Part shown: positions 2,354-61,354 of the stretch, in pieces
How the letters are laid out: the number at the start of each line of letters is the position of its first letter
How positions within the stretch are numbered: the first letter of the stretch is position 1
Assembly: GCA_965218975.1 (NCBI GenBank)
Contig: OZ244717.1
Span: 448,001 to 512,000, forward strand
DNA length: 64,000 nucleotides
Direction of reading: 5' to 3'
DNA from: Candidatus Oxydemutatoraceae bacterium
GTDB lineage: Bacteria > Pseudomonadota > Gammaproteobacteria > Poriferisulfidales > Oxydemutatoraceae
The notes under the pieces: generated by a model
The model's database searches: none
What the model was told of the DNA's origin: nothing
Seen by the model: only the letters and a program-made list of their open reading frames with translations
Made by a program: the position numbers and the translations under genes

Positions 2354-2626
2354 TGCACGATGCCACCCTAAATAGGATTTTTGAAGTGCTTCGAGGGAAG
2401 CGTTCGACAGTAACATTCGGATCGGTGCTTTCTGTCCGCTGCCGACATGAGGACGGTGTAGCTTATACCAGGCTAAATACTCCCATAATCGGTCATTGAA
2501 TGCTTCCGTATCAGTGAATAGCAGGTCTTCCGCATGATCGATACACTCTTCTTGGACCGTACGGTTGAAGCGTTTAATGTGCGCATTCATTTTCGGATAC
2601 TTGGGATAGGTCAGCCACTGCTCATT
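2354..2626 (-). mobile_element. IS481-family remnant (transposase C-terminus plus element end), NOT interrupted by the 98-bp element
   Basis: YPKYPKMNAHIKRFNRTVQEE...NDRLWEYLAWYKLHRPH; end TGCACGATGCCACCC matches TGTACGATGCCACCC ends elsewhere in the window. Confidence 0.85.
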
Positions 2627-6575: not shown

Positions 6576-7273
6576 TGTACGATTCCACCTTAAATGGGAT
6601 TTTTGAAGGGCTTCGGGGGAAACGTTCGGCAGTAACATTCGGATCGGTGCTTTCTGTCCGTTGCCGGCATGAGAGCGGTGCAGGGTGAGACGCGCCACTG
6701 AAAACCGATCGGTTTTCAGTGGCGAACGACCCAACAAGGACGTCGGGGCTGGCGCTCATTGACAGAACCGAGTCTCGTTATGAACGACAGGCACTTTGCT
6801 AGATTGCGGCAGTACCGACACTATACACACCAGGGTCAGGCGCAGGAATGCGGCTGCGTTGCGGCTGTTACAGCGATTGGTTGCTACTGCTATTGCCATT
6901 CAGGTATAGACATCAATGGCCGTTAAGACGTAGCGGCGCACTCCGTGCTGATCACGCACAATCGTATCCAGGGCGATGCAATGCCCTGGATACTGTGCTT
7001 TGAAGTGTTTCGGCTTGCGTGCCCTGCAACGGCGCTTAAACGGTCGTTTTGTTTGTCCTTTGGCATTCAGCCGCTGCGGAATACAGCGCATTTTATCCGG
7101 CGCATCTGCGGTCAGGCGCTTTGCCGCGGTCATGCAAGGCGCTGAGCCCAGTGCGGCAATAACGTTAGCGCCAGCGGTACAAAGTGTTGCAACCGACCTT
7201 GAATGCGTTATAGAGCATCATGTTTTTGTTGAGCCATTGTGTTCATAATAGCTTCTATTTTTGAAGTGTACAT
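6576..7273 (-). mobile_element. IS481-family deletion derivative carrying one 98-bp element
   Basis: TGTACGATTCCACC end at 6576; transposase blocks ADAPDKMR...CIALDTIVR and MNTMAQQK start; element at 6683-6781. Confidence 0.85.
6683..6800 (+). repeat. 98-bp structured element (99-bp variant) plus short tail
   Basis: GGGTGAGACGCGCC...GAAAACCGATCGGTTTTC...TTGACAGAACCGAGTCTCGTTAT. Confidence 0.92.
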
Positions 7274-7570: not shown

Positions 7571-8111
7571 TGTATTAGATCCATAACATTTGGTACTCCG
7601 GGTGGTGAGTCAGGAGCGATTGTATCGGGAGATTGCAACCCCAGTGAATGATGGGGCGTTGGGTGTTGTAAAACACCGGCCATTGCGCCAATTCCCAATC
7701 AAAACAGAGGCCACATCAATGAACAGGAGCCTCTCGCAAAGAGCTGCGCGGTTGTCCGTGAATGATTCCTGCAAGCTACGGTTGAAGCGCTCGACGTGCG
7801 CGTTCATCTTTGGCGACTTCGGATAGGTCCACCAGTGGGTGGTCCGGCGCTGTTTCAACTCGGTCTCGAAGTCCTTCATAAACTCCGAGCCGTTGTCGGA
7901 CAAGATATAGCCGATCGGTTTCGGCACCAGTTCTGCCTTATCGCAGGCAGCGGCCATGCCATGGCTTTCCTGGAAGGTGAGAATTTTGAGTCTTTGTTTT
8001 GCATCGTAAGTCATAGTATCCCAACTATGCCTAATTTCAGCAACCCGGTAAAATCCCCGGATTCGATAGCCTATATGTCAGATTTGCAAGGCTTCTGAGC
8101 TTATGTATACA
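7571..8111 (-). mobile_element. Degraded IS481-family element of a second subfamily (ends approximate)
   Basis: ILSDNGSEF, WTYPKSPKMNAHVERFNRSLQESF, with internal deletions. Confidence 0.75.
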
Positions 8112-8185
8112 CAAAAGATATGTGACTCTTAACTGCGGTTATTTATCATGTTCTGTATCTAATTGTTCTTATATGTAGCTATCTT

Positions 8186-11167: not shown

Positions 11168-11469
11168 GGCAGCAGTAAAGTCTTTGAGCTGATGAGACTG
11201 TTTTGTGTTTGTTGCCGGATTTTCGGCGGATTGTGCCGGATTATCGGCAAAGTGCCTGTCACCCATGACGAGACTTGGTTCTGTCAATGAGCACTAGACC
11301 CGACATCCTTGTCGGGTCGTTAGCCGCTGAAAACCGATCGGTTTTCCGGGCGCGTCTCACCCTGCACCGTCCTCATGCCGGCAACGGGCAGAAAGCACCG
11401 ATCCGAATGTTACTGCCGAACGCTTCCCTCGAAGCCCTTTAAAAATCCCATTTAGGGTGGCATCGTACA
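11168..11469 (+). mobile_element. Miniature IS481 derivative: transposase fragment, tail, 98-bp element (11265-11362), IS end
   Basis: Ends in GGGTGGCATCGTACA at 11469; element ATGACGAGAC...GTCTCACCC. Confidence 0.88.
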
Positions 11470-28823: not shown

Positions 28824-28900
28824 GGGTGAGACGCGTCCGGAAACCTGTCTGCGTGCACTGCACAGGCAGGACCGATCGGTTTTCCGAGCGCGTCTCACCC
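28824..28900. repeat. Two partial 98-bp-element ends in inverted orientation (77-bp foldback)
   Basis: GGGTGAGACGCGTCCGGAAACC...ACCGATCGGTTTTCCGAGCGCGTCTCACCC. Confidence 0.85.
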
Positions 28901-29359
28901 TGACAGACGGTGGTAGCGAGTTTCAAGGACAGTTTGCACAGCTCATCCGGGAGTCACCCGGAATTGAGCAGTGGCTAACTTATCCCAAGTGTCCGAAAAT
29001 GAACGCGCACATCAAGCGTTTTAACCGTACGGTCCAGGAGGATTGTGTTGATCATGCGGAAGACCTGCTATTCACCGATACGGAAGCATTCAATGACCGG
29101 TTATGAAACCGTTTTGTGTTTGTTGCCGGATTTTCGGCAAAGTGCTTATCGTCCATGGCGAGACTTGGTTCTATGAATGAACCCCGGCCCCGACGTCCTT
29201 GTCGGGTCGTTCGCCGCTGAAAACCGATCGCTTTTCCGGGCGCGTCTCACCTTGCACCGCCCTCATGCCGGCAACGGACAGAAAGCACCGATCCGAATGT
29301 TACTGCCGAACGCTTCTCCCGAAGCGCTTCAAAAATCCCATTTAGGGTGGCATCGTACA
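28901..29359 (+). mobile_element. IS481 remnant: block TDGGSEF...NDRL, 98-bp element (29155-29252), IS end
   Basis: LTDGGSEFQGQF...KMNAHIKRFNRT; ends in GGCATCGTACA at 29359. Confidence 0.88.
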
Positions 29360-32189: not shown

Positions 32190-32912
32190 TGTACGATGCC
32201 ACCCTAAAAGGGATTTTTGAAGAGATTCTGGGGAAACGTTCGGCAGTAACATTCGGATCGGTGCTTTCTGTCCGTTGCCGGGTGAGACGCGCCCGGAAAA
32301 CCGAGCGGTTTTCAGCGGCGAACGACCCGACAAGGACGTCGGGGCTGGTGCTCATTAACAGAACCAAGTCTCGTCATGGATGACAAACACTTTGCCGAAC
32401 ATTCGCCAGCAAATACAAAATGGTTTCATCAACTCAAAGATTTTACTGCTGCCGAGATTCGAATGAGCTTGGCGCAGGGTGAGACGCGCCCGGGAAACCG
32501 ATCGGTTTTCAGCAGCGAACGACCCGACAAGGACGTCGGGGCTGGTGATCATTGACAGAACCAAGTCTCGTTATGGACGACAGGCACTTTGCTGACAATC
32601 CGCCGACGCCTTTTGCGCGGCGCTTTGGTGCGGTCATGCAATGCACTGAGTCCAATGCGGCGATAACGTCGGCGCCAGCGGTACAAAAAGTACTGCAACC
32701 GACTTTGAATGCGTTCGGGAGTTACATCCCTCCCAAAATGAGGGCGGCATATTTCTGTTGAAGCTTGAGTGCTCATGAGCCTCCATTTTTGAAGCAAAAT
32801 TGGCTCATCTAGAAACCTTTGATGCGGTGTTGTAGCCGATTTGTGCTGATATTGCATATCGGCCACCTTTTTATTGACGTCCAAGAATCCGGTATGTGTC
32901 CGGACACGTACA
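32190..32912 (-). mobile_element. IS481 derivative with two 98-bp elements (32280-32377, 32477-32574)
   Basis: TGTACGATGCC at 32190, ...ACGTACA at 32912; blocks LYRWRRRY...KAPRKRRRR and LRQAHSNLGSSKIFELMKPFC. Confidence 0.86.
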
Positions 32913-36216: not shown

Positions 36217-36470
36217 CTAATCAACCCCATCCACAAACGTTTCAACAAACGCTTTAATCCGGTCAATAATACGTTCTGTGATTATACGGCGCTCCTTAAT
36301 CTTCGGGCGTATATACATGATGTCAATCACGTCATCTCGCAACGGCGTCTTCTCCGTGAACAGATAATCATCAATCACTTCCCGCAACCTGTTAACGTCT
36401 AGCCCTTCATCCTCGCTTAAAGCCTGAATGGCCTTGTGCTTTTCTTCAGTCCAGTAGCCTTCAAAAGCGA
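36217..36470 (-). pseudogene. C-terminal fragment resembling type I restriction subunit HsdR
   Basis: EGLDVNRLREVIDDYLF...RPKIKERR...RIIDRIKAFVETF resembles EcoR124I-type C-termini; cut off by an IS end at 36471. Confidence 0.6.
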
Positions 36471-36568
36471 TGTATAGTGCCAGATACATATGGGACTCAC
36501 GGCACGACTCGAAAAGGTGACCGATATGCAATATCAGCATATCGGCCACCGCATCAAATGTTTCTGAG
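36471..36568 (+). mobile_element. Solo IS481 left end (about 100 bp)
   Basis: TGTATAGTGCCAGATACAT..., near reverse complement of 38770-38862. Confidence 0.8.
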
Positions 36569-37135
36569 CTTATGCACATGCTATCGGCAAGATGGGATGG
36601 ATTGACAAACTCTTTGATGCTGTCAAAGGGGGCAATGGATAACCCATCCGACAACTCGATTTCCTGATCTAGACGTAATCCACGAAAAACGGAAATATGG
36701 TAACCGGTGAACCGACGTCTTTCCTCCGGTGCCAGAAATTCTTCCAGTCTTGATGCTACATCATTGAGGTCTTTACCCTTCGTGCAACTCATTAGCCCCG
36801 CAACGATATCGGTCAAACTTACGCACGCACCCACATTTTCGATGTGAACATTAAGTTCATCTGTTTTGGACGAGGACTCCAAGACGTGTTTTAGGACAGG
36901 GTGTTCGCGCAGGACCTTTTTAACCGCATTCAATGCCAAGAAAAGAGGTCCGTAGTGAGTCCTATAGTAAAGAGACTCTTTGTTGGCACGCATTATTATA
37001 TATAGAATAACGACGGCTGGAAAAAGGGTGTACGATGCCACCCTAAATGGGATTTTTGAAGGGCTTCGGGGGAAACGTTCGGCAGTAACATTCGGATCGG
37101 TGCTTTCTGTCCGTTGTCGGCATGAGGACGGTGCA

Positions 37136-37331
37136 GGGTGAGACGCGTCCGGAAAACCGATCGGTTTTCAGCGGCGAACGACCCGACAAGGATGTCGGGG
37201 CTGGAGATCATTGACAGAACCAAGTCTCGTCATGGGTGAGACGCGCCCGGAAAACCAATTGGTTTTCAGCGGTGAACGACCCGACAAGGATGTCGGGGCT
37301 GGCGCTCATTGACAGAACCAAGTCGCGTCAT
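37136..37331 (+). repeat. Tandem array, 2 x 98 bp
   Basis: Units start at 37136 and 37234; tail to about 37404. Confidence 0.95.
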
Positions 37332-37606
37332 GGATGACAGGCACTTTGCCGACAATCCGGCACAATCCGCCGACAACACGCCAACAAACACAAAACGGTT
37401 TCATAACCGGTCATTGAATGCTTCCGTATCGGCGAATAGCAGGTCTTCCGCATGATCGATACAATCTTCTTGGACGGTGCGGTTGAAGCGCACGATGTGC
37501 GCGTTCATTTTTGGACACTTGGGATAGGTCAGCCACTGTTCAATCACGGATGATTTCCGGATGAGCCGGGCAAACTGTCCTTGAAACTCGCTCCTGCCGT
37601 CCGTCA

Positions 37607-37900
37607 GGGTGAGACGCGCCCGGAAAACCGATCGGTTTTCAGCGGCGAACAACTCGACAAGGACGTCGGGGCTGGCGCTCATTGACAGAACCAAGTCTCG
37701 TCATGGGTGAGACGCGCCCGGAAAACCAATTGGTTTTCAGCGGCGAACGATCCGACAAGGATGTCGGGGCTGGGGCTTGTTGACAGAACCCAGTCGCGTC
37801 ATGGGTGAGACGCGCCCGGAAAACCAATTGGTTTTCAGCGGTGAACGACCCGACAAGGATGTCGGGGCTGGGGCTTGTTGACAGAACCCAGTCGCGTCAT
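37607..37900 (+). repeat. Tandem array, 3 x 98 bp
   Basis: Units start at 37607, 37705, 37803; tail to about 37926. Confidence 0.95.
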
Positions 37901-38236
37901 GGATGACAGGCACTTTGCCGAAATTCTGCCAGGCGCAGGAATGCGGCTGTGTTGCGGCTGTTACAGCGGTTGGTTGCCACTGCTATTGCCATTCGGGTAT
38001 AGATATTGATGGCCGTTAAGACGTAGCGGCGCACTCCGTGCTGATAACGCACAATCGTATCCAGGGCGATACAATGCCCCCGGATACTGTGCTTTGAAGT
38101 GTTTCGGCTTGCGTGCCCTGCAACGGCGCTTAAACGGTCGTTTTGTTTGTCCTTTGGCATTCAGCCGCTGCGGAATACAGCGCATTTTATCCGGCGCATC
38201 TGCGATCAGGCGCGCAATCGTGCGGACACTCGGGCA

Positions 38237-38530
38237 GGGTGAGACGCGCCCGGAAAACCAATTGGTTTTCAGCGGCGAACGATCCGACAAGGATGTCGGG
38301 GCTGGGGCTTGTTGACAGAACCAAGTCGCGTCATGGGTGAGACGCGCCCGGAAAACCGATCGGTTTTCAGCGGCGAACGACTCGACAAGGACGTCGGGGC
38401 TGGCTCTCATTGACAGAACCAAGTCTCGTCATGGGGGAGACGCGCCCGGAAAACCAATTGGTTTTCAGCGGCGAACGACCCGACAAGGATGTCGGGGCTG
38501 GGGCTTGTTGACAGAACCAAGTCTCGTCAT
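38237..38530 (+). repeat. Tandem array, 3 x 98 bp
   Basis: Units start at 38237, 38335, 38433; tail to about 38558. Confidence 0.95.
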
Positions 38531-39144
38531 GGACGACAGGCACTTTGCTGACAATCCGCTGGCGCCTCTTACGCGGCGCTTTGCCGCGATCATGTAAGGC
38601 GCTGAGGCCAGTGTGGCGATAACGCCGACGCCAGCGGTACAAAGTACTGCGACCGATCTTGAATGCGTTCGGGAGTTACAACCCTCCCAAAATAATAGGG
38701 CATCATATTTCTGTTGAGCCGTTGTGTTCATAATAACCTCTATTTTTGAAGCAAAATTGGCTCATATAGAAACCTTTGATGCGGTGGCCGATGTACTGAT
38801 ATTGCATATCGGTTACCTTTTTGAGTCGTGCCGTGAATCCCACATGTATCTGGCACTGTACAAAGGGTCGGAAAACGTTGCTCGTCGCTTAGCGAGTTCG
38901 CCCACCCCTATTTTAATGATATCTAGCTCAGAGATGTAATCCATTTCAGTCTCTGCCAGCGAAGAAAGAGATTGAGCCAAACGTTTAACCCAATCGGATG
39001 CCGAAAAATGATGCTGTACCATAGTTAAGAACTTATCCTATTACATCTGATTGCGTCAATGTCTTAGATGTTAAGGATATGTAGTATAGCCAAGTCGCTA
39101 TCCAACAACACAGCGTGTAATATGCGACGAATCCGTACAAATTC

Positions 39145-59930: not shown

Positions 59931-60674
59931 TTAGTACATCAACTCAACCCGCCGATTCATTTTATGTGCTCGTTCACTGTTACCTTGATGCAGCGGACGT
60001 TCTTCACCATAGCTAACCGTTACGATCTGAGATGGGGAAACTCCCATTTCTTCAAGGATGTCCGCCACCATCCGAGCGCGTTGCAGGCCCAGCCGTTTGT
60101 TATATTCTCGCGATGCCACGCTGTCGGTATGCCCTTCAATAGTTACAATCAAGTCGGGATTTTTCTGTAAATAAGCGGCATGCGCCTCCAACAGATGCAT
60201 CCCCGCGGAGCCAGTCCGAGCTTTCTTATAATCAAACTGCACAATATTATTGTTCGGTTGCCCGCCACTTGCTTCTTGGAGACGACCGGCGGCTTGCTTA
60301 CCTTTCATTGCTGTCTCTGTAGGACGACGTGTCGGCGGCATCGCTTCTTCATCCGCCATCTGACCATCGTAGTTAAGGCGGCGAGGGGACTCCTCTGACG
60401 TTTCTTTTTTGGCACTCACCACTTCACGATACAATTCATTGCCATCCTCATCAACGTACACATAAACGATCTCTTCCACACCTTCTCCTGAAAACTCGTC
60501 CTCTTCCAATCCATTTTCCACTTCTATTTCGTCATCAAATACAATTTCTTTGACTTCTTCCTCATCGTCAAAAAACCAATCCCATGATTTTGAACTACAG
60601 CCAGTCAGCGCTAAAACGATAATTAAAGCGAGTAATAAAGGTTTGTATAAAGTCATGCTCGTTTCCCCTTTCAT
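59931..60674 (-). CDS. Pal/OmpA-family lipoprotein with acidic linker
   Basis: Lipobox LTGC; IEGHTD, YNKRLGLQRA, VSYGEERP, NRRVEL. Confidence 0.85.
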   Translation of the reverse strand: MKGETSMTLYKPLLLALIIVLALTGCSSKSWDWFFDDEEEVKEIVFDDEIEVENGLEEDEFSGEGVEEIVYVYVDEDGNELYREVVSAKKETSEESPRRLNYDGQMADEEAMPPTRRPTETAMKGKQAAGRLQEASGGQPNNNIVQFDYKKARTGSAGMHLLEAHAAYLQKNPDLIVTIEGHTDSVASREYNKRLGLQRARMVADILEEMGVSPSQIVTVSYGEERPLHQGNSERAHKMNRRVELMY

Positions 60675-60856: not shown

Positions 60857-61354
60857 TTAATTCCCGCATTTACCTTCGCCGCACTTACCTTCTTTATCTT
60901 TTTTCATTTCACTTCCACCGCATTTACCTTCTTTATCTTTTTTCATTTCACTTCCACCGCATTTACCTTCTTTATCTTTTTTCATTTCACTTCCACCGCA
61001 TTTACCTTCGCCGCACTTACCTTCTTTATCTTTTTTCATTTCACTTCCACCGCATTTACCTTCGCCGCACTTACCTTCTTTATCTTTTTTCATTTCACTT
61101 CCACCGCATTTACCTTCGCCGCACTTGCCTTCTTTATCTTTTTTCATTTCACTTCCACCGCATTTACCTTCGCCGCATTTACCTTCCATGCTTTTCTTCA
61201 TTGAATGGTTGTCGGCCAATTGCATATAACCGGAAGAGAGCTCTTGCATTTCAAAAGGGGATTGTTCGGCATTCATATTCGCGGATAATGTTCCCGCAAT
61301 CACAGTTGAAACAATGGCGACAGACGCCTTGAGTTTAAATTTTTTGTGCTCCAT
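60857..61354 (-). CDS. EGKCG-repeat exported protein (HvfA-like RiPP precursor)
   Basis: Signal peptide, SPFEMQELSSGYM, 12 EGKCG motifs. Confidence 0.85.
   Translation of the reverse strand: MEHKKFKLKASVAIVSTVIAGTLSANMNAEQSPFEMQELSSGYMQLADNHSMKKSMEGKCGEGKCGGSEMKKDKEGKCGEGKCGGSEMKKDKEGKCGEGKCGGSEMKKDKEGKCGEGKCGGSEMKKDKEGKCGGSEMKKDKEGKCGGSEMKKDKEGKCGEGKCGN
60862..61190. repeat. Coding tandem repeat of 54-bp and 39-bp units
   Basis: Near-identical units encoding MKKDKEGKCG(EGKCG)GSE. Confidence 0.92.

What the first reader, a model, noticed from the sequence alone, without database searches (positions are those of the whole stretch)
37029..38862. Candidate new system: a 98-bp structured mini-element that repeatedly invades transposase genes
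Seen directly: an IS481 element with both termini and an AAGGG duplication has its transposase cut into collinear blocks by arrays of 2, 3 and 3 copies of a 98-bp unit. All 13 full units and both partial ends in the window lie in transposase remnants, none in other DNA. Four distinct sites in one roughly 1-kb gene are occupied, all in the same orientation. The unit has three hairpins (TGAC-G-AGA/TCTGTCA; CCCGAC/GTCGGG; the 18-bp palindrome GAAAACCGATCGGTTTTC), no terminal inverted repeats and no TSD. It matches no REP, ERIC, MITE, attC or CRISPR repeat that I recognise. Inference: a non-autonomous hyperparasite, or a host-encoded transposon-inactivation mechanism, mobilised in trans by an enzyme outside this window.
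Basis: partly seen in the sequence, partly recalled or inferred. Interest (0 to 1): 0.92.

Follow-up and report, generated by a model that had tools for sequence, protein, structure and literature searches.

The report
Satellite repeat riding dead IS481 copies
A 98-base hairpin-rich repeat, found only in this bacterial lineage, sits in short tandem arrays inside almost every decayed copy of one family of jumping genes, most likely as a passenger that multiplied with them.

Summary
Window 37029-38862 is an IS481-family element with both ends and a 5-bp duplication. Its transposase (minus strand) is broken by arrays of 2, 3 and 3 copies of a 98-bp unit.

Genome-wide there are 323 unit hits in 191 arrays. 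184 of 191 arrays lie within 300 bp of IS481-derived DNA, which covers only 3.1% of the genome. 181 have the same orientation relative to the IS and 3 the opposite.

The "repeated invader" reading is not shown:
- Every array ends in a conserved tail.
- At each occupied site, array plus tail replaces IS sequence (22, 39 and about 132 bp).
- The right joints are chimeras that carry pieces of another part of the IS, and the same odd joint is shared by 33 copies.
- Units carry the same private mutation load as the IS backbone and show no structural or coding constraint.
- Arrays at different sites of one IS copy share their architecture.
- No Y1 HUH, reverse transcriptase, IS110-type or TnpB gene was found, and no intact IS481 transposase.

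Best reading (0.55): a lineage-specific minisatellite with a tail that entered an IS481 copy. It spread with the IS and was reshuffled by slippage, unequal recombination and microhomology deletions. A defined-end mobile mini-element is not excluded (0.22).

The parts
37024..37028 (.). Left copy of the 5-bp target duplication (AAGGG) of the IS
   Evidence: Read directly; the same five bases follow the other end.
37029..37135 (-). IS block b1. It holds the terminal inverted repeat and the last codons of the transposase, which runs into the end of the IS.
   Evidence: Ends aligned. There are 96 hits of this block in the genome, 64 of them full length. Empty copies keep the reading frame across site 1.
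37136..37331 (+). Array 1: two 98-bp units at site 1
   Evidence: The same junction, from the end of b1 into unit base 1, is seen in 54 copies.
37332..37404 (+). Tail 1. It consists of the conserved tail head, a short-period C/A-rich stretch, and a last 14 nt identical to a stretch of the IS segment that normally lies at site 3.
   Evidence: The tail-to-b2 joint is shared by 33 copies.
37405..37606 (-). IS block b2, the C-terminal part of the catalytic domain of the transposase
   Evidence: ORF fragments; blastn copies.
37607..37900 (+). Array 2: three units at site 2
   Evidence: The junction from the end of b2 into a unit is seen in 28 copies; 3 copies are empty at this site.
37901..37932 (+). 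Tail 2: the tail head fused to about 10 nt of the site-3 IS segment. Array plus tail replace 39 bp of IS sequence.
   Evidence: Filled and empty copies compared.
37933..38236 (-). IS block b3, the N-terminal part of the catalytic domain
38237..38530 (+). Array 3: three units at site 3. The first unit, 38237-38334, served as the reference unit.
   Evidence: The junction from the end of b3 into a unit is seen in 17 copies.
38531..38562 (+). Tail 3: a truncated tail joined to b4 through a short overlap. Array plus tail replace about 132 bp of IS sequence.
38563..38862 (-). IS block b4: the helix-turn-helix N-terminus of the transposase, its start, and the other terminal inverted repeat
38863..38867 (.). 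Right copy of the 5-bp target duplication
36217..39022 (-). Host open reading frame split by the IS. Its parts are 38863-39022 and 36217-37028.
   Evidence: ORFs. Function not examined.
6576..7266 (+). Another copy of the IS: b1, one unit, b3, b4. The b3-to-b4 joint carries no array, but IS sequence is deleted there.
11192..11469 (-). Short derivative: b1, one unit and a tail only
28871..29359 (-). Copy with b1, one unit, tail, b2 and a 30-nt partial unit
32190..32872 (+). Copy in which a unit follows b1 at position 92 rather than 107. It is followed by a linker made of tail plus an IS segment, a second unit, and b4.
2354..2624 (+). IS remnant with site 1 empty (b1 joined to b2 through the native 22 bp)

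Best explanation
The 98-bp unit and its tail form a lineage-specific minisatellite that is cargo of a now defunct IS481-family insertion sequence. It is not an independent invader.

Proposed history:
1. One array, a few units plus tail, came to lie inside the transposase gene of an IS copy. The site-3 region is the likely place. This step is inferred, and the origin of the unit is unknown.
2. The array-bearing, non-autonomous IS was multiplied by transposases supplied by then-intact copies.
3. The roughly 95 copies then exchanged and reshaped their arrays. Unit number changed by replication slippage and unequal crossing-over. Recombination between arrays produced copies that lack internal IS blocks, and also higher-order repeats.
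4. Deletions or template switches across nested or tandem IS copies moved arrays to new positions in the same orientation. These events used 1-9 nt of overlap and were often anchored at the three G that begin the unit. Each cost some IS sequence and carried along pieces of the donor's flank.

The family is now dead, and the units decay neutrally.

Shown here: distribution, orientation, joint anatomy, shared joints, equal age, lack of constraint, lack of candidate enzymes.

Inferred: the order of events, and trans-mobilisation in the past.
For: Distribution:
- 184 of 191 arrays lie within 300 bp of IS481-derived DNA, which makes up 3.13% of the genome. 181 have the same orientation and 3 the opposite.
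- Of the 7 unplaced arrays, 6 lie in multi-array clusters that begin with an IS end.

Joint anatomy:
- Filled sites replace 22, 39 and about 132 bp of IS sequence.
- The right joints at sites 1 and 2, and in a second IS subfamily, carry 8-26 nt or more of the IS segment that natively lies at site 3.
- The chimeric tail-to-b2 joint is shared by 33 copies, and the b1-to-unit joint by 54.
- Left joints inside b1 fall at positions 31-32, 40, 65, 86, 90 and 107-109. At positions 32, 40, 65 and 90 the native b1 has a run of G at or within 2 nt of the joint, matching the unit's first bases.
- Truncated first units also exist, as deletions would give.

Age and constraint:
- Private-variant load is 1.45% for units, against 2.15% for b1, 1.31% for b2 and 1.57% for b4.
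- Pairwise divergence is 6.4% for the first unit at site 1 and 6.2% for b1.
- There are no site-specific unit lineages. Same site between copies differs by 6.2-9.4%; different sites within one copy differ by 6.0%.
- Stems do not carry fewer variants than other columns, and compensated pairs are few: 5, 1 and 2.
- The 21-codon frame shows no coding constraint.

Array architecture: it is concordant within an IS copy in 34 of 39 pairs, and 2 of 5000 shuffles reach this.

Modular derivatives:
- Higher-order repeats of units, tail and IS segment occur with a period of 316 bp.
- The 108-bp variant is a unit plus the first six tail bases plus three flank bases.

Enzymes: no intact transposase, and no Y1 HUH, reverse transcriptase, IS110-type or TnpB gene.
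Against: - The left boundary is exactly unit base 1 in about a dozen different flanking contexts, spread over three IS481 subfamilies and both orientations. Random deletions would not obviously favour that point.
- One subfamily (3 copies) carries units plus tail in the opposite orientation. By my reading of the frame, little or no target sequence is lost there; no empty copy of that subfamily was compared. This looks like a real insertion.
- One array, at genome 393302-393465, lies between two ordinary genes with no IS sequence beside it.
- Only 5 of 36 complete elements keep an exact 5-bp duplication, so transposition of array-bearing copies is not directly shown.
- The origin of the unit and the first entry into an IS remain unexplained. 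No progenitor was found in the genome.
Confidence: 0.55

Rival explanations
1. The units plus tail are, or were, a true non-autonomous mobile element with a defined 5' end. It copies itself into IS481 DNA by a one-ended process: rolling-circle-like or template-switch 'patch' insertion. The process starts exactly at unit base 1 and stops at variable points in the tail or in the donor's flank. It joins through a few bases of overlap and often deletes target DNA. The enzyme is lost or of an unknown kind.
For: - The left end is constant in about a dozen contexts, while the right end varies and carries donor flank.
- It is present in three IS481 subfamilies, once inverted and, by my reading, with little or no target loss.
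- A solitary intergenic copy exists.
- Empty alleles exist for each of the three main sites.
- Arrays usually begin with the same unit type, as if a multi-unit block were the thing copied.
Against: - No Y1 HUH, reverse transcriptase, IS110-type or TnpB gene in a genome that is 99.4% complete.
- Units are as old as the IS backbone and decay without constraint.
- Joints are shared by tens of copies.
- Array architecture is concordant within an IS copy.
- Truncated first units exist.
- Confinement to IS DNA follows trivially if the IS is the vehicle.
Confidence: 0.22
2. The units serve a function. Possibilities are a structured RNA, a protein-binding palindrome array, or a 21-residue basic peptide encoded on the transposase strand. 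On this reading the units are kept in IS copies by selection, for example to silence or regulate the transposase.
For: - The unit folds better than shuffles.
- The central palindrome exists in two forms that both keep perfect symmetry: 146 and 79 of 236 units, with 11 mixed.
- The 21-codon frame is intact in 220 of 236 units.
Against: - Rare variants are spread evenly over stems, loops and other columns.
- The ratio of non-synonymous to synonymous rare variants is 143 to 47, against 127 to 53 possible.
- The two symmetric bases cannot pair in a hairpin, because the loop would be 2 nt. One correcting event in a founder unit explains them.
- There is no Rfam match.
Confidence: 0.08
3. A host-encoded mechanism writes the units into transposase genes to inactivate them.
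For: There is only the pattern itself: nearly all arrays lie in IS481 remnants, and no intact transposase is left.
Against: - No candidate gene was found.
- Joints are irregular and shared by descent.
- 35 of 126 IS-A fragment clusters carry no unit.
- Units are as old as the IS copies.
- Relatives with intact IS481 elements carry no units.
Confidence: 0.03
4. Assembly artefact: the arrays result from collapsed or misjoined repeats.
For: The region is highly repetitive, and no listed contig spans the whole element.
Against: - Contigs of run X1 bridge both unique-flank-to-IS joints with 0 differences.
- Runs X5, X6 and X8, from other studies, hold contigs across block-to-unit and unit-to-tail joints.
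- The same architecture recurs at about 90 loci of a single-contig genome.
- Unit counts within a given array are not verified by long reads.
Confidence: 0.02

Closest known systems
BrickBuilt MITE of Porphyromonas gingivalis, a minisatellite inside a MITE (PMC4596501; abstract and outline read)
   Same: It is a bacterial, species-limited, non-autonomous element. It is built as leader, tandem repeats without spacers, then tail, with variable repeat number and many copies per genome.
   Different: BrickBuilt repeats are 23 nt, against 98 nt hairpin-rich units here. By its abstract it is always intergenic and occurs 19 times in one strain. Here the arrays sit inside transposase genes of one IS family at several positions, about 190 arrays in all, and the vehicle's ends are those of an identifiable IS481 element.
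BOX elements of Streptococcus pneumoniae
   Same: Modular head, variable number of a tandem middle module, then tail; strong predicted secondary structure; no coding capacity.
   Different: BOX modules are shorter and intergenic, and are thought to be moved through their own terminal repeats. No link to one IS family is known to me. There is no sequence relation (Rfam, which I recall may not hold BOX, gave nothing).
REP/BIME repeats mobilised by RAYT, and IS200/IS605 palindrome-associated elements (the RAYT paper PMC2817692 was seen only as a listing with the start of its abstract; the rest is recalled)
   Same: Hairpin-rich; no terminal inverted repeats; no target duplication; clustered, mosaic arrays; one-orientation behaviour.
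   Different: No Y1 HUH gene in this genome. REPs are 20-40 nt and extragenic. There is no constant target word here, and target sequence is lost at the joints.
Satellite-like arrays carried by Helentron/DINE-1 elements of animals (PMC7492417 and PMC4067079; listing and start of abstract only)
   Same: Short tandem arrays are dispersed through a genome because a non-autonomous transposon carries them. Array length varies between copies.
   Different: These are eukaryotic rolling-circle elements, whereas here the vehicle is a bacterial DDE-type IS481. No rolling-circle gene was found (with a silent control).
Rickettsia palindromic elements (recalled)
   Same: Palindromic repeats of about 100 nt found inside genes of a host-restricted bacterium.
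   Different: Those elements insert in frame and are translated within many different genes. The unit here is 98 nt, not a multiple of three. It breaks the gene and is confined to one IS family.

Membership tests
IS481 family insertion sequence (the vehicle) | DDE (rve) transposase closest to the IS481 model | tested here: met
   On a 182-aa fragment, NF033577 scores 75.3 bits and E 5e-21, against 36.8 bits for IS3. This is below the whole-protein cut-off of 224 because only a fragment is left. Pfam rve scores 24.5 bits, below its cut-off of 32.6. Full-length homologues of 330-390 aa carry rve domains.
IS481 family insertion sequence (the vehicle) | Terminal inverted repeats and a short direct target duplication | tested here: met
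   10 of the first 12 end bases are identical. There is a 5-bp duplication at the focal copy. Only 5 of 36 complete copies genome-wide keep an exact duplication.
IS481 family insertion sequence (the vehicle) | Intact transposase gene (autonomous element) | tested here: not met
   No open frame of 150 aa or more spans the gene. The best rve match in the genome is 34.7 bits on a fragment. The 90 matches to the core in this genome cover it only in pieces, apart from the query's own place; the longest other match covers residues 16-181 with an internal stop.
MITE or other non-autonomous IS derivative carrying an internal minisatellite (BrickBuilt-like) | Ends of a known IS, no working transposase, internal tandem repeats with head and tail modules, many copies | tested here: met
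   Module maps of 133 clusters were made, 91 of which hold both IS blocks and units. Short b1-units-b4 forms of 378-930 bp exist.
MITE or other non-autonomous IS derivative carrying an internal minisatellite (BrickBuilt-like) | Evidence that the array-bearing form itself transposed | tested here: inconclusive
   Five array-bearing copies have exact 5-bp duplications, one of them only 663 bp long. In-situ deletion after insertion cannot be excluded.
IS200/IS605-type palindrome-associated element or REP/RAYT system | Y1 HUH transposase in the genome | tested here: not met
   PF01797 gives 0 matches in a genome 99.4% complete; the control rang in 6 of 14 genomes. TnpB-type domain PF07282 gives 0 matches.
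IS200/IS605-type palindrome-associated element or REP/RAYT system | Insertion next to a constant short target word without loss of target | tested here: not met
   The bases before the unit vary: mostly CA, but also GC, GT, CC, AC, AA, AT and CT. Target sequence is lost at sites 1-3.
IS110/IS1111 (bridge or seek RNA guided) derivative | DEDD recombinase gene and one specific target | tested here: not met
   PF01548 gives 0 matches; the control rang in 7 of 14 genomes. There are many different joint contexts.
Group II intron, retron or other retroelement | Reverse transcriptase gene; intron or msr RNA model | tested here: not met
   PF00078 gives 0 matches. Rfam gives only a tRNA at gathering score, and two chance-level matches with E 3.8 and 4.3.
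IS91/ISCR/Helitron-like rolling-circle element | Y2 HUH transposase | tested here: inconclusive
   PF04986 gives 0 matches, but the control rang in none of the 14 genomes, so the search is uninformative.
CRISPR array or integron attC array | Repeats separated by unique spacers or cassettes | tested here: not met
   Units abut head to tail (92 joints) or are separated by a fixed 9-10 nt (33 joints). Where a longer stretch intervenes, it is tail plus IS sequence.

The most novel reading that the evidence does not exclude
The units plus tail are a new kind of bacterial mobile mini-element. It has one defined end and propagates as a copied patch into DNA of IS481-type transposons. It starts exactly at unit base 1, ends at variable points, co-transfers donor flank and joins by a few bases of overlap. 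That would make it a parasite of a transposon, moved by an enzyme of no recognised family or by the replication and repair machinery itself.
Probability: 0.2. Interest if true: 0.8.

Novelty: new variant of a known kind. Interest (0 to 1): 0.45.

Why it matters
In this genome a structured 98-bp satellite (31 kb of units, 1.8% of the genome with tails) is confined to one dead transposon family and accompanies nearly all of its copies.

If the passive reading holds, it is an unusually clear bacterial case of a transposon-borne minisatellite. It records microhomology deletions and unequal recombination among about 95 dispersed copies, and so helps to show how transposon families decay in small genomes. 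The units would also make strain-typing markers.

If the active reading holds, it would be a transposon-specific hyperparasite with a one-ended copying mechanism not described in bacteria.

Tried and rejected
Searches for the unit elsewhere, all without a hit:
- Exact pattern scans of genome contigs and metagenome contigs: 0 hits each.
- blastn of three units plus tail and flank (window 38237-38600) against 40 relatives, plasmids and phages: only the own genome matched.
- Looking for a progenitor in the genome with the units masked: only unit fragments and chance words.

Known RNA families: Rfam at gathering score and at E up to 10 gave nothing credible. ARAGORN found only tRNA-Val.

Coding and structural constraint: neither was found. 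I first took the paired change in the central palindrome for stem covariation. I rejected this because the two bases would close a 2-nt loop.

Site-specific unit lineages, and a correlation of unit divergence with backbone divergence: none (rho -0.14).

A possible 'master' locus at genome 149-154 kb, where two inverted arrays flank about 3 kb. The flanking heads proved to be ends of a second IS481-like subfamily. The genes between them look like nucleotidyltransferase/HEPN-type and HNH-type genes, judged by eye from the translations and not tested. No recombinase was seen.

I noticed by eye that the tail head resembles the IS end. I did not test it, and it counts as a lead only.

No RNA holder was listed among the public runs, so expression could not be examined.

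Supplementary files of papers were not consulted. None bears on a claim made here.

Not done: a tree of IS copies with array states mapped on it. The blocks are short and the copies recombine, so I judged it uninformative.
Full report
**What is there**

Window 37029-38862 is an IS481-family insertion sequence.
- Its ends are inverted repeats, with 10 of the first 12 bases identical.
- It is flanked by a 5-bp duplication.
- It splits a host reading frame on the minus strand.
- Its transposase lies on the minus strand. A clean 182-aa fragment from another copy scores 75.3 bits on the IS481 model, against 36.8 on IS3. Full-length homologues of 330-390 aa are at most 52% identical.

The gene is interrupted by period-98 arrays of 2, 3 and 3 units. 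Their exact limits are 37136-37331, 37607-37900 and 38237-38530. The unit's palindrome core occurs 14 times in the window, against none in 100 shuffles. The unit folds into a closed three-hairpin structure better than shuffles, with z -3.1 as DNA and -2.6 and -2.9 as RNA.

Each array is followed by a conserved tail. Its head matches 8 times in the window against 0.02 expected, and it follows the arrays genome-wide.

Copies elsewhere in the genome are empty at one or another site. Compared with them, array plus tail replace 22 bp (site 1), 39 bp (site 2) and about 132 bp (site 3) of IS sequence.

The right joints are chimeras:
- At site 1 the tail ends in 14 nt identical to a stretch of the site-3 segment, and joins block b2 through a 3-nt overlap.
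- At site 2 the tail head is fused to about 10 nt of the same segment.
- At site 3 a truncated tail joins b4 through a short overlap.

**Genome-wide picture**

The window lies in a 2.081-Mb single-contig genome.
- A blastn search finds 332 unit hits, 323 after nested hits are removed. 305 of the 323 are 90 nt or longer, and together the 323 hits cover 30,989 bp.
- They form 191 arrays: 108 single, 57 double, 19 triple and 7 longer, up to 7 units.
- IS481-derived DNA without units and tails covers 65,116 bp, or 3.13% of the genome. Yet 184 of 191 arrays lie within 300 bp of it, 181 in the same orientation relative to the IS and 3 in the opposite.
- Of the 7 unplaced arrays, 6 lie in clusters that start with an IS end. 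One, at genome 393302-393465, sits between two ordinary genes.
- Joint counts: b1 into a unit, 54 copies (site 1 empty in 6); b2 into a unit, 28 (empty in 3); b3 into a unit, 17; the chimeric tail-to-b2 joint, 33.
- A second IS481-like subfamily carries units at other positions. There the tail is followed by 26 nt or more of the first subfamily's site-3 segment.
- Three copies of a third variant carry units plus tail inverted. By my reading of the reading frame, little or no target sequence is lost.

No intact transposase is left.

The unit was found in 1 of 41 genomes searched among relatives, the window's own. It was also absent from two collection scans and from plasmids and phages. Relatives do have intact IS481-type genes, in 11 of 41 genomes counting the window's own, at 51% identity or less.

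**Age and constraint**

- Units fall into two main types that differ at about ten columns.
- Private variants are as frequent in units (1.45%) as in IS blocks (2.15%, 1.31% and 1.57%).
- Pairwise divergence of the first unit at site 1 (6.4%) equals that of b1 (6.2%).
- Units at the same site in different copies are no more alike than units at different sites.
- Rare variants are spread evenly over stems, loops and the rest, and compensated pairs are few.
- A 21-codon frame on the transposase strand is intact in 220 of 236 units, but it shows no excess of synonymous change.

The units therefore look as old as the IS burst, and they have drifted since.

**How the arrays relate to each other**

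Arrays at different sites of one IS copy share their architecture: units either abut or are spaced by 9-10 nt. 34 of 39 pairs are concordant, and only 2 of 5000 shuffles reach this.

The 9-10 nt spacer is the first six tail bases plus three flank bases. It is a deletion derivative of the arrangement unit, tail, linker, unit.

Higher-order repeats of two units, a tail and a piece of IS recur with a period of 316 bp.

Left joints inside b1 lie at positions 31-32, 40, 65, 86, 90 and 107-109. At four of these classes the native sequence has a run of G at or within 2 nt of the joint, matching the three G that open the unit. Truncated first units also occur.

**Reading**

These features fit a passenger better than an invader. 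An array with its tail entered one IS copy. The array-bearing, non-autonomous IS then multiplied. The roughly 95 copies reshaped the arrays by slippage, unequal recombination and microhomology-mediated deletions or template switches among nested or adjacent copies. IS copies abutting one another in the same orientation are seen.

This reading explains several things at once:
- the confinement to IS DNA;
- the common orientation;
- the lost target sequence;
- the co-transferred IS fragments;
- the shared odd joints;
- the equal age of units and backbone;
- the within-copy concordance of array architecture.

It also needs no enzyme. None was found: Y1 HUH, reverse transcriptase, IS110-type and TnpB searches were all empty with working controls. 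The Y2 search was uninformative because its control was silent.

**What this reading does not explain**

- Unit base 1 is the exact boundary in about a dozen different contexts.
- One subfamily holds an inverted, apparently clean insertion.
- One array stands alone between ordinary genes.
- The origin of the unit is unknown.

These points keep open a defined-end, one-ended copying element (probability 0.22).

**Reliability**

Contigs of run X1 bridge both unique-flank-to-IS joints without a difference. Runs of three other studies hold contigs across b2-to-unit, b3-to-unit and unit-to-tail joints, as well as empty-site alleles. Unit numbers in individual arrays are not verified by long reads.

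**Comparison with known systems**

The nearest bacterial precedent I found is the BrickBuilt MITE with its internal 23-nt minisatellite and leader and tail modules (PMC4596501; abstract read). Pneumococcal BOX elements (recalled) share the modular plan.

REP/RAYT, IS200/IS605, IS110 and retroelement memberships fail on a defining gene or on the joint anatomy.

I class the finding as a new variant of a known kind: a transposon-borne minisatellite. It is unusual for its unit size, for its position inside the transposase gene at several sites, and for its near-complete occupation of one IS family.

Noticed in passing
window 60857-61354 (minus strand): A 165-aa reading frame with a signal-like start and a tandemly repeated Cys/Gly/Lys-rich motif. 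The DNA periods are 15, 39, 54 and 93 bp. It lies next to an OmpA-like lipoprotein frame at 59931-60674.
   Followed up: partly
L013 (genome 146000-157000), arrays at genome 149159-149805 and 152984-153848: Two unit arrays in inverted orientation, each headed by the end of a second IS481-like subfamily, flank about 3 kb. By eye, the genes there are of nucleotidyltransferase/HEPN-like and HNH-like kinds, next to a 1018-aa helicase-like frame. The layout is like a composite transposon.
   Followed up: partly
window 7592-8130 (genome 455592 onward): A short internally deleted copy of the second IS481-like subfamily, without units. A fuller copy at genome 590148 (minus strand) carries two units plus tail.
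   Followed up: partly
window 36217-39022 (minus strand): A host reading frame of unknown function is split by the focal IS. A further inverted fragment of the IS end lies at 36471-36565, inside the downstream part.
   Followed up: no
genome-wide, unit columns 24 and 27: The central palindrome exists in two perfectly symmetric versions (146 and 79 of 236 units, 11 mixed), although these two bases cannot pair in a hairpin. This suggests palindrome correction by template switching, or a dimeric binding site.
   Followed up: partly
genome 841276-842098 and 879555-880374: Two array-bearing IS copies have the same internal structure and the same 10-nt flanks on both sides. This is probably a segmental duplication rather than two insertions.
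   Followed up: no
L020 (genome 391800-394800): This is the only array without IS sequence beside it. It lies between a repetitive surface-protein-like frame and a frame that I take by eye to be YaaA-like.
   Followed up: partly
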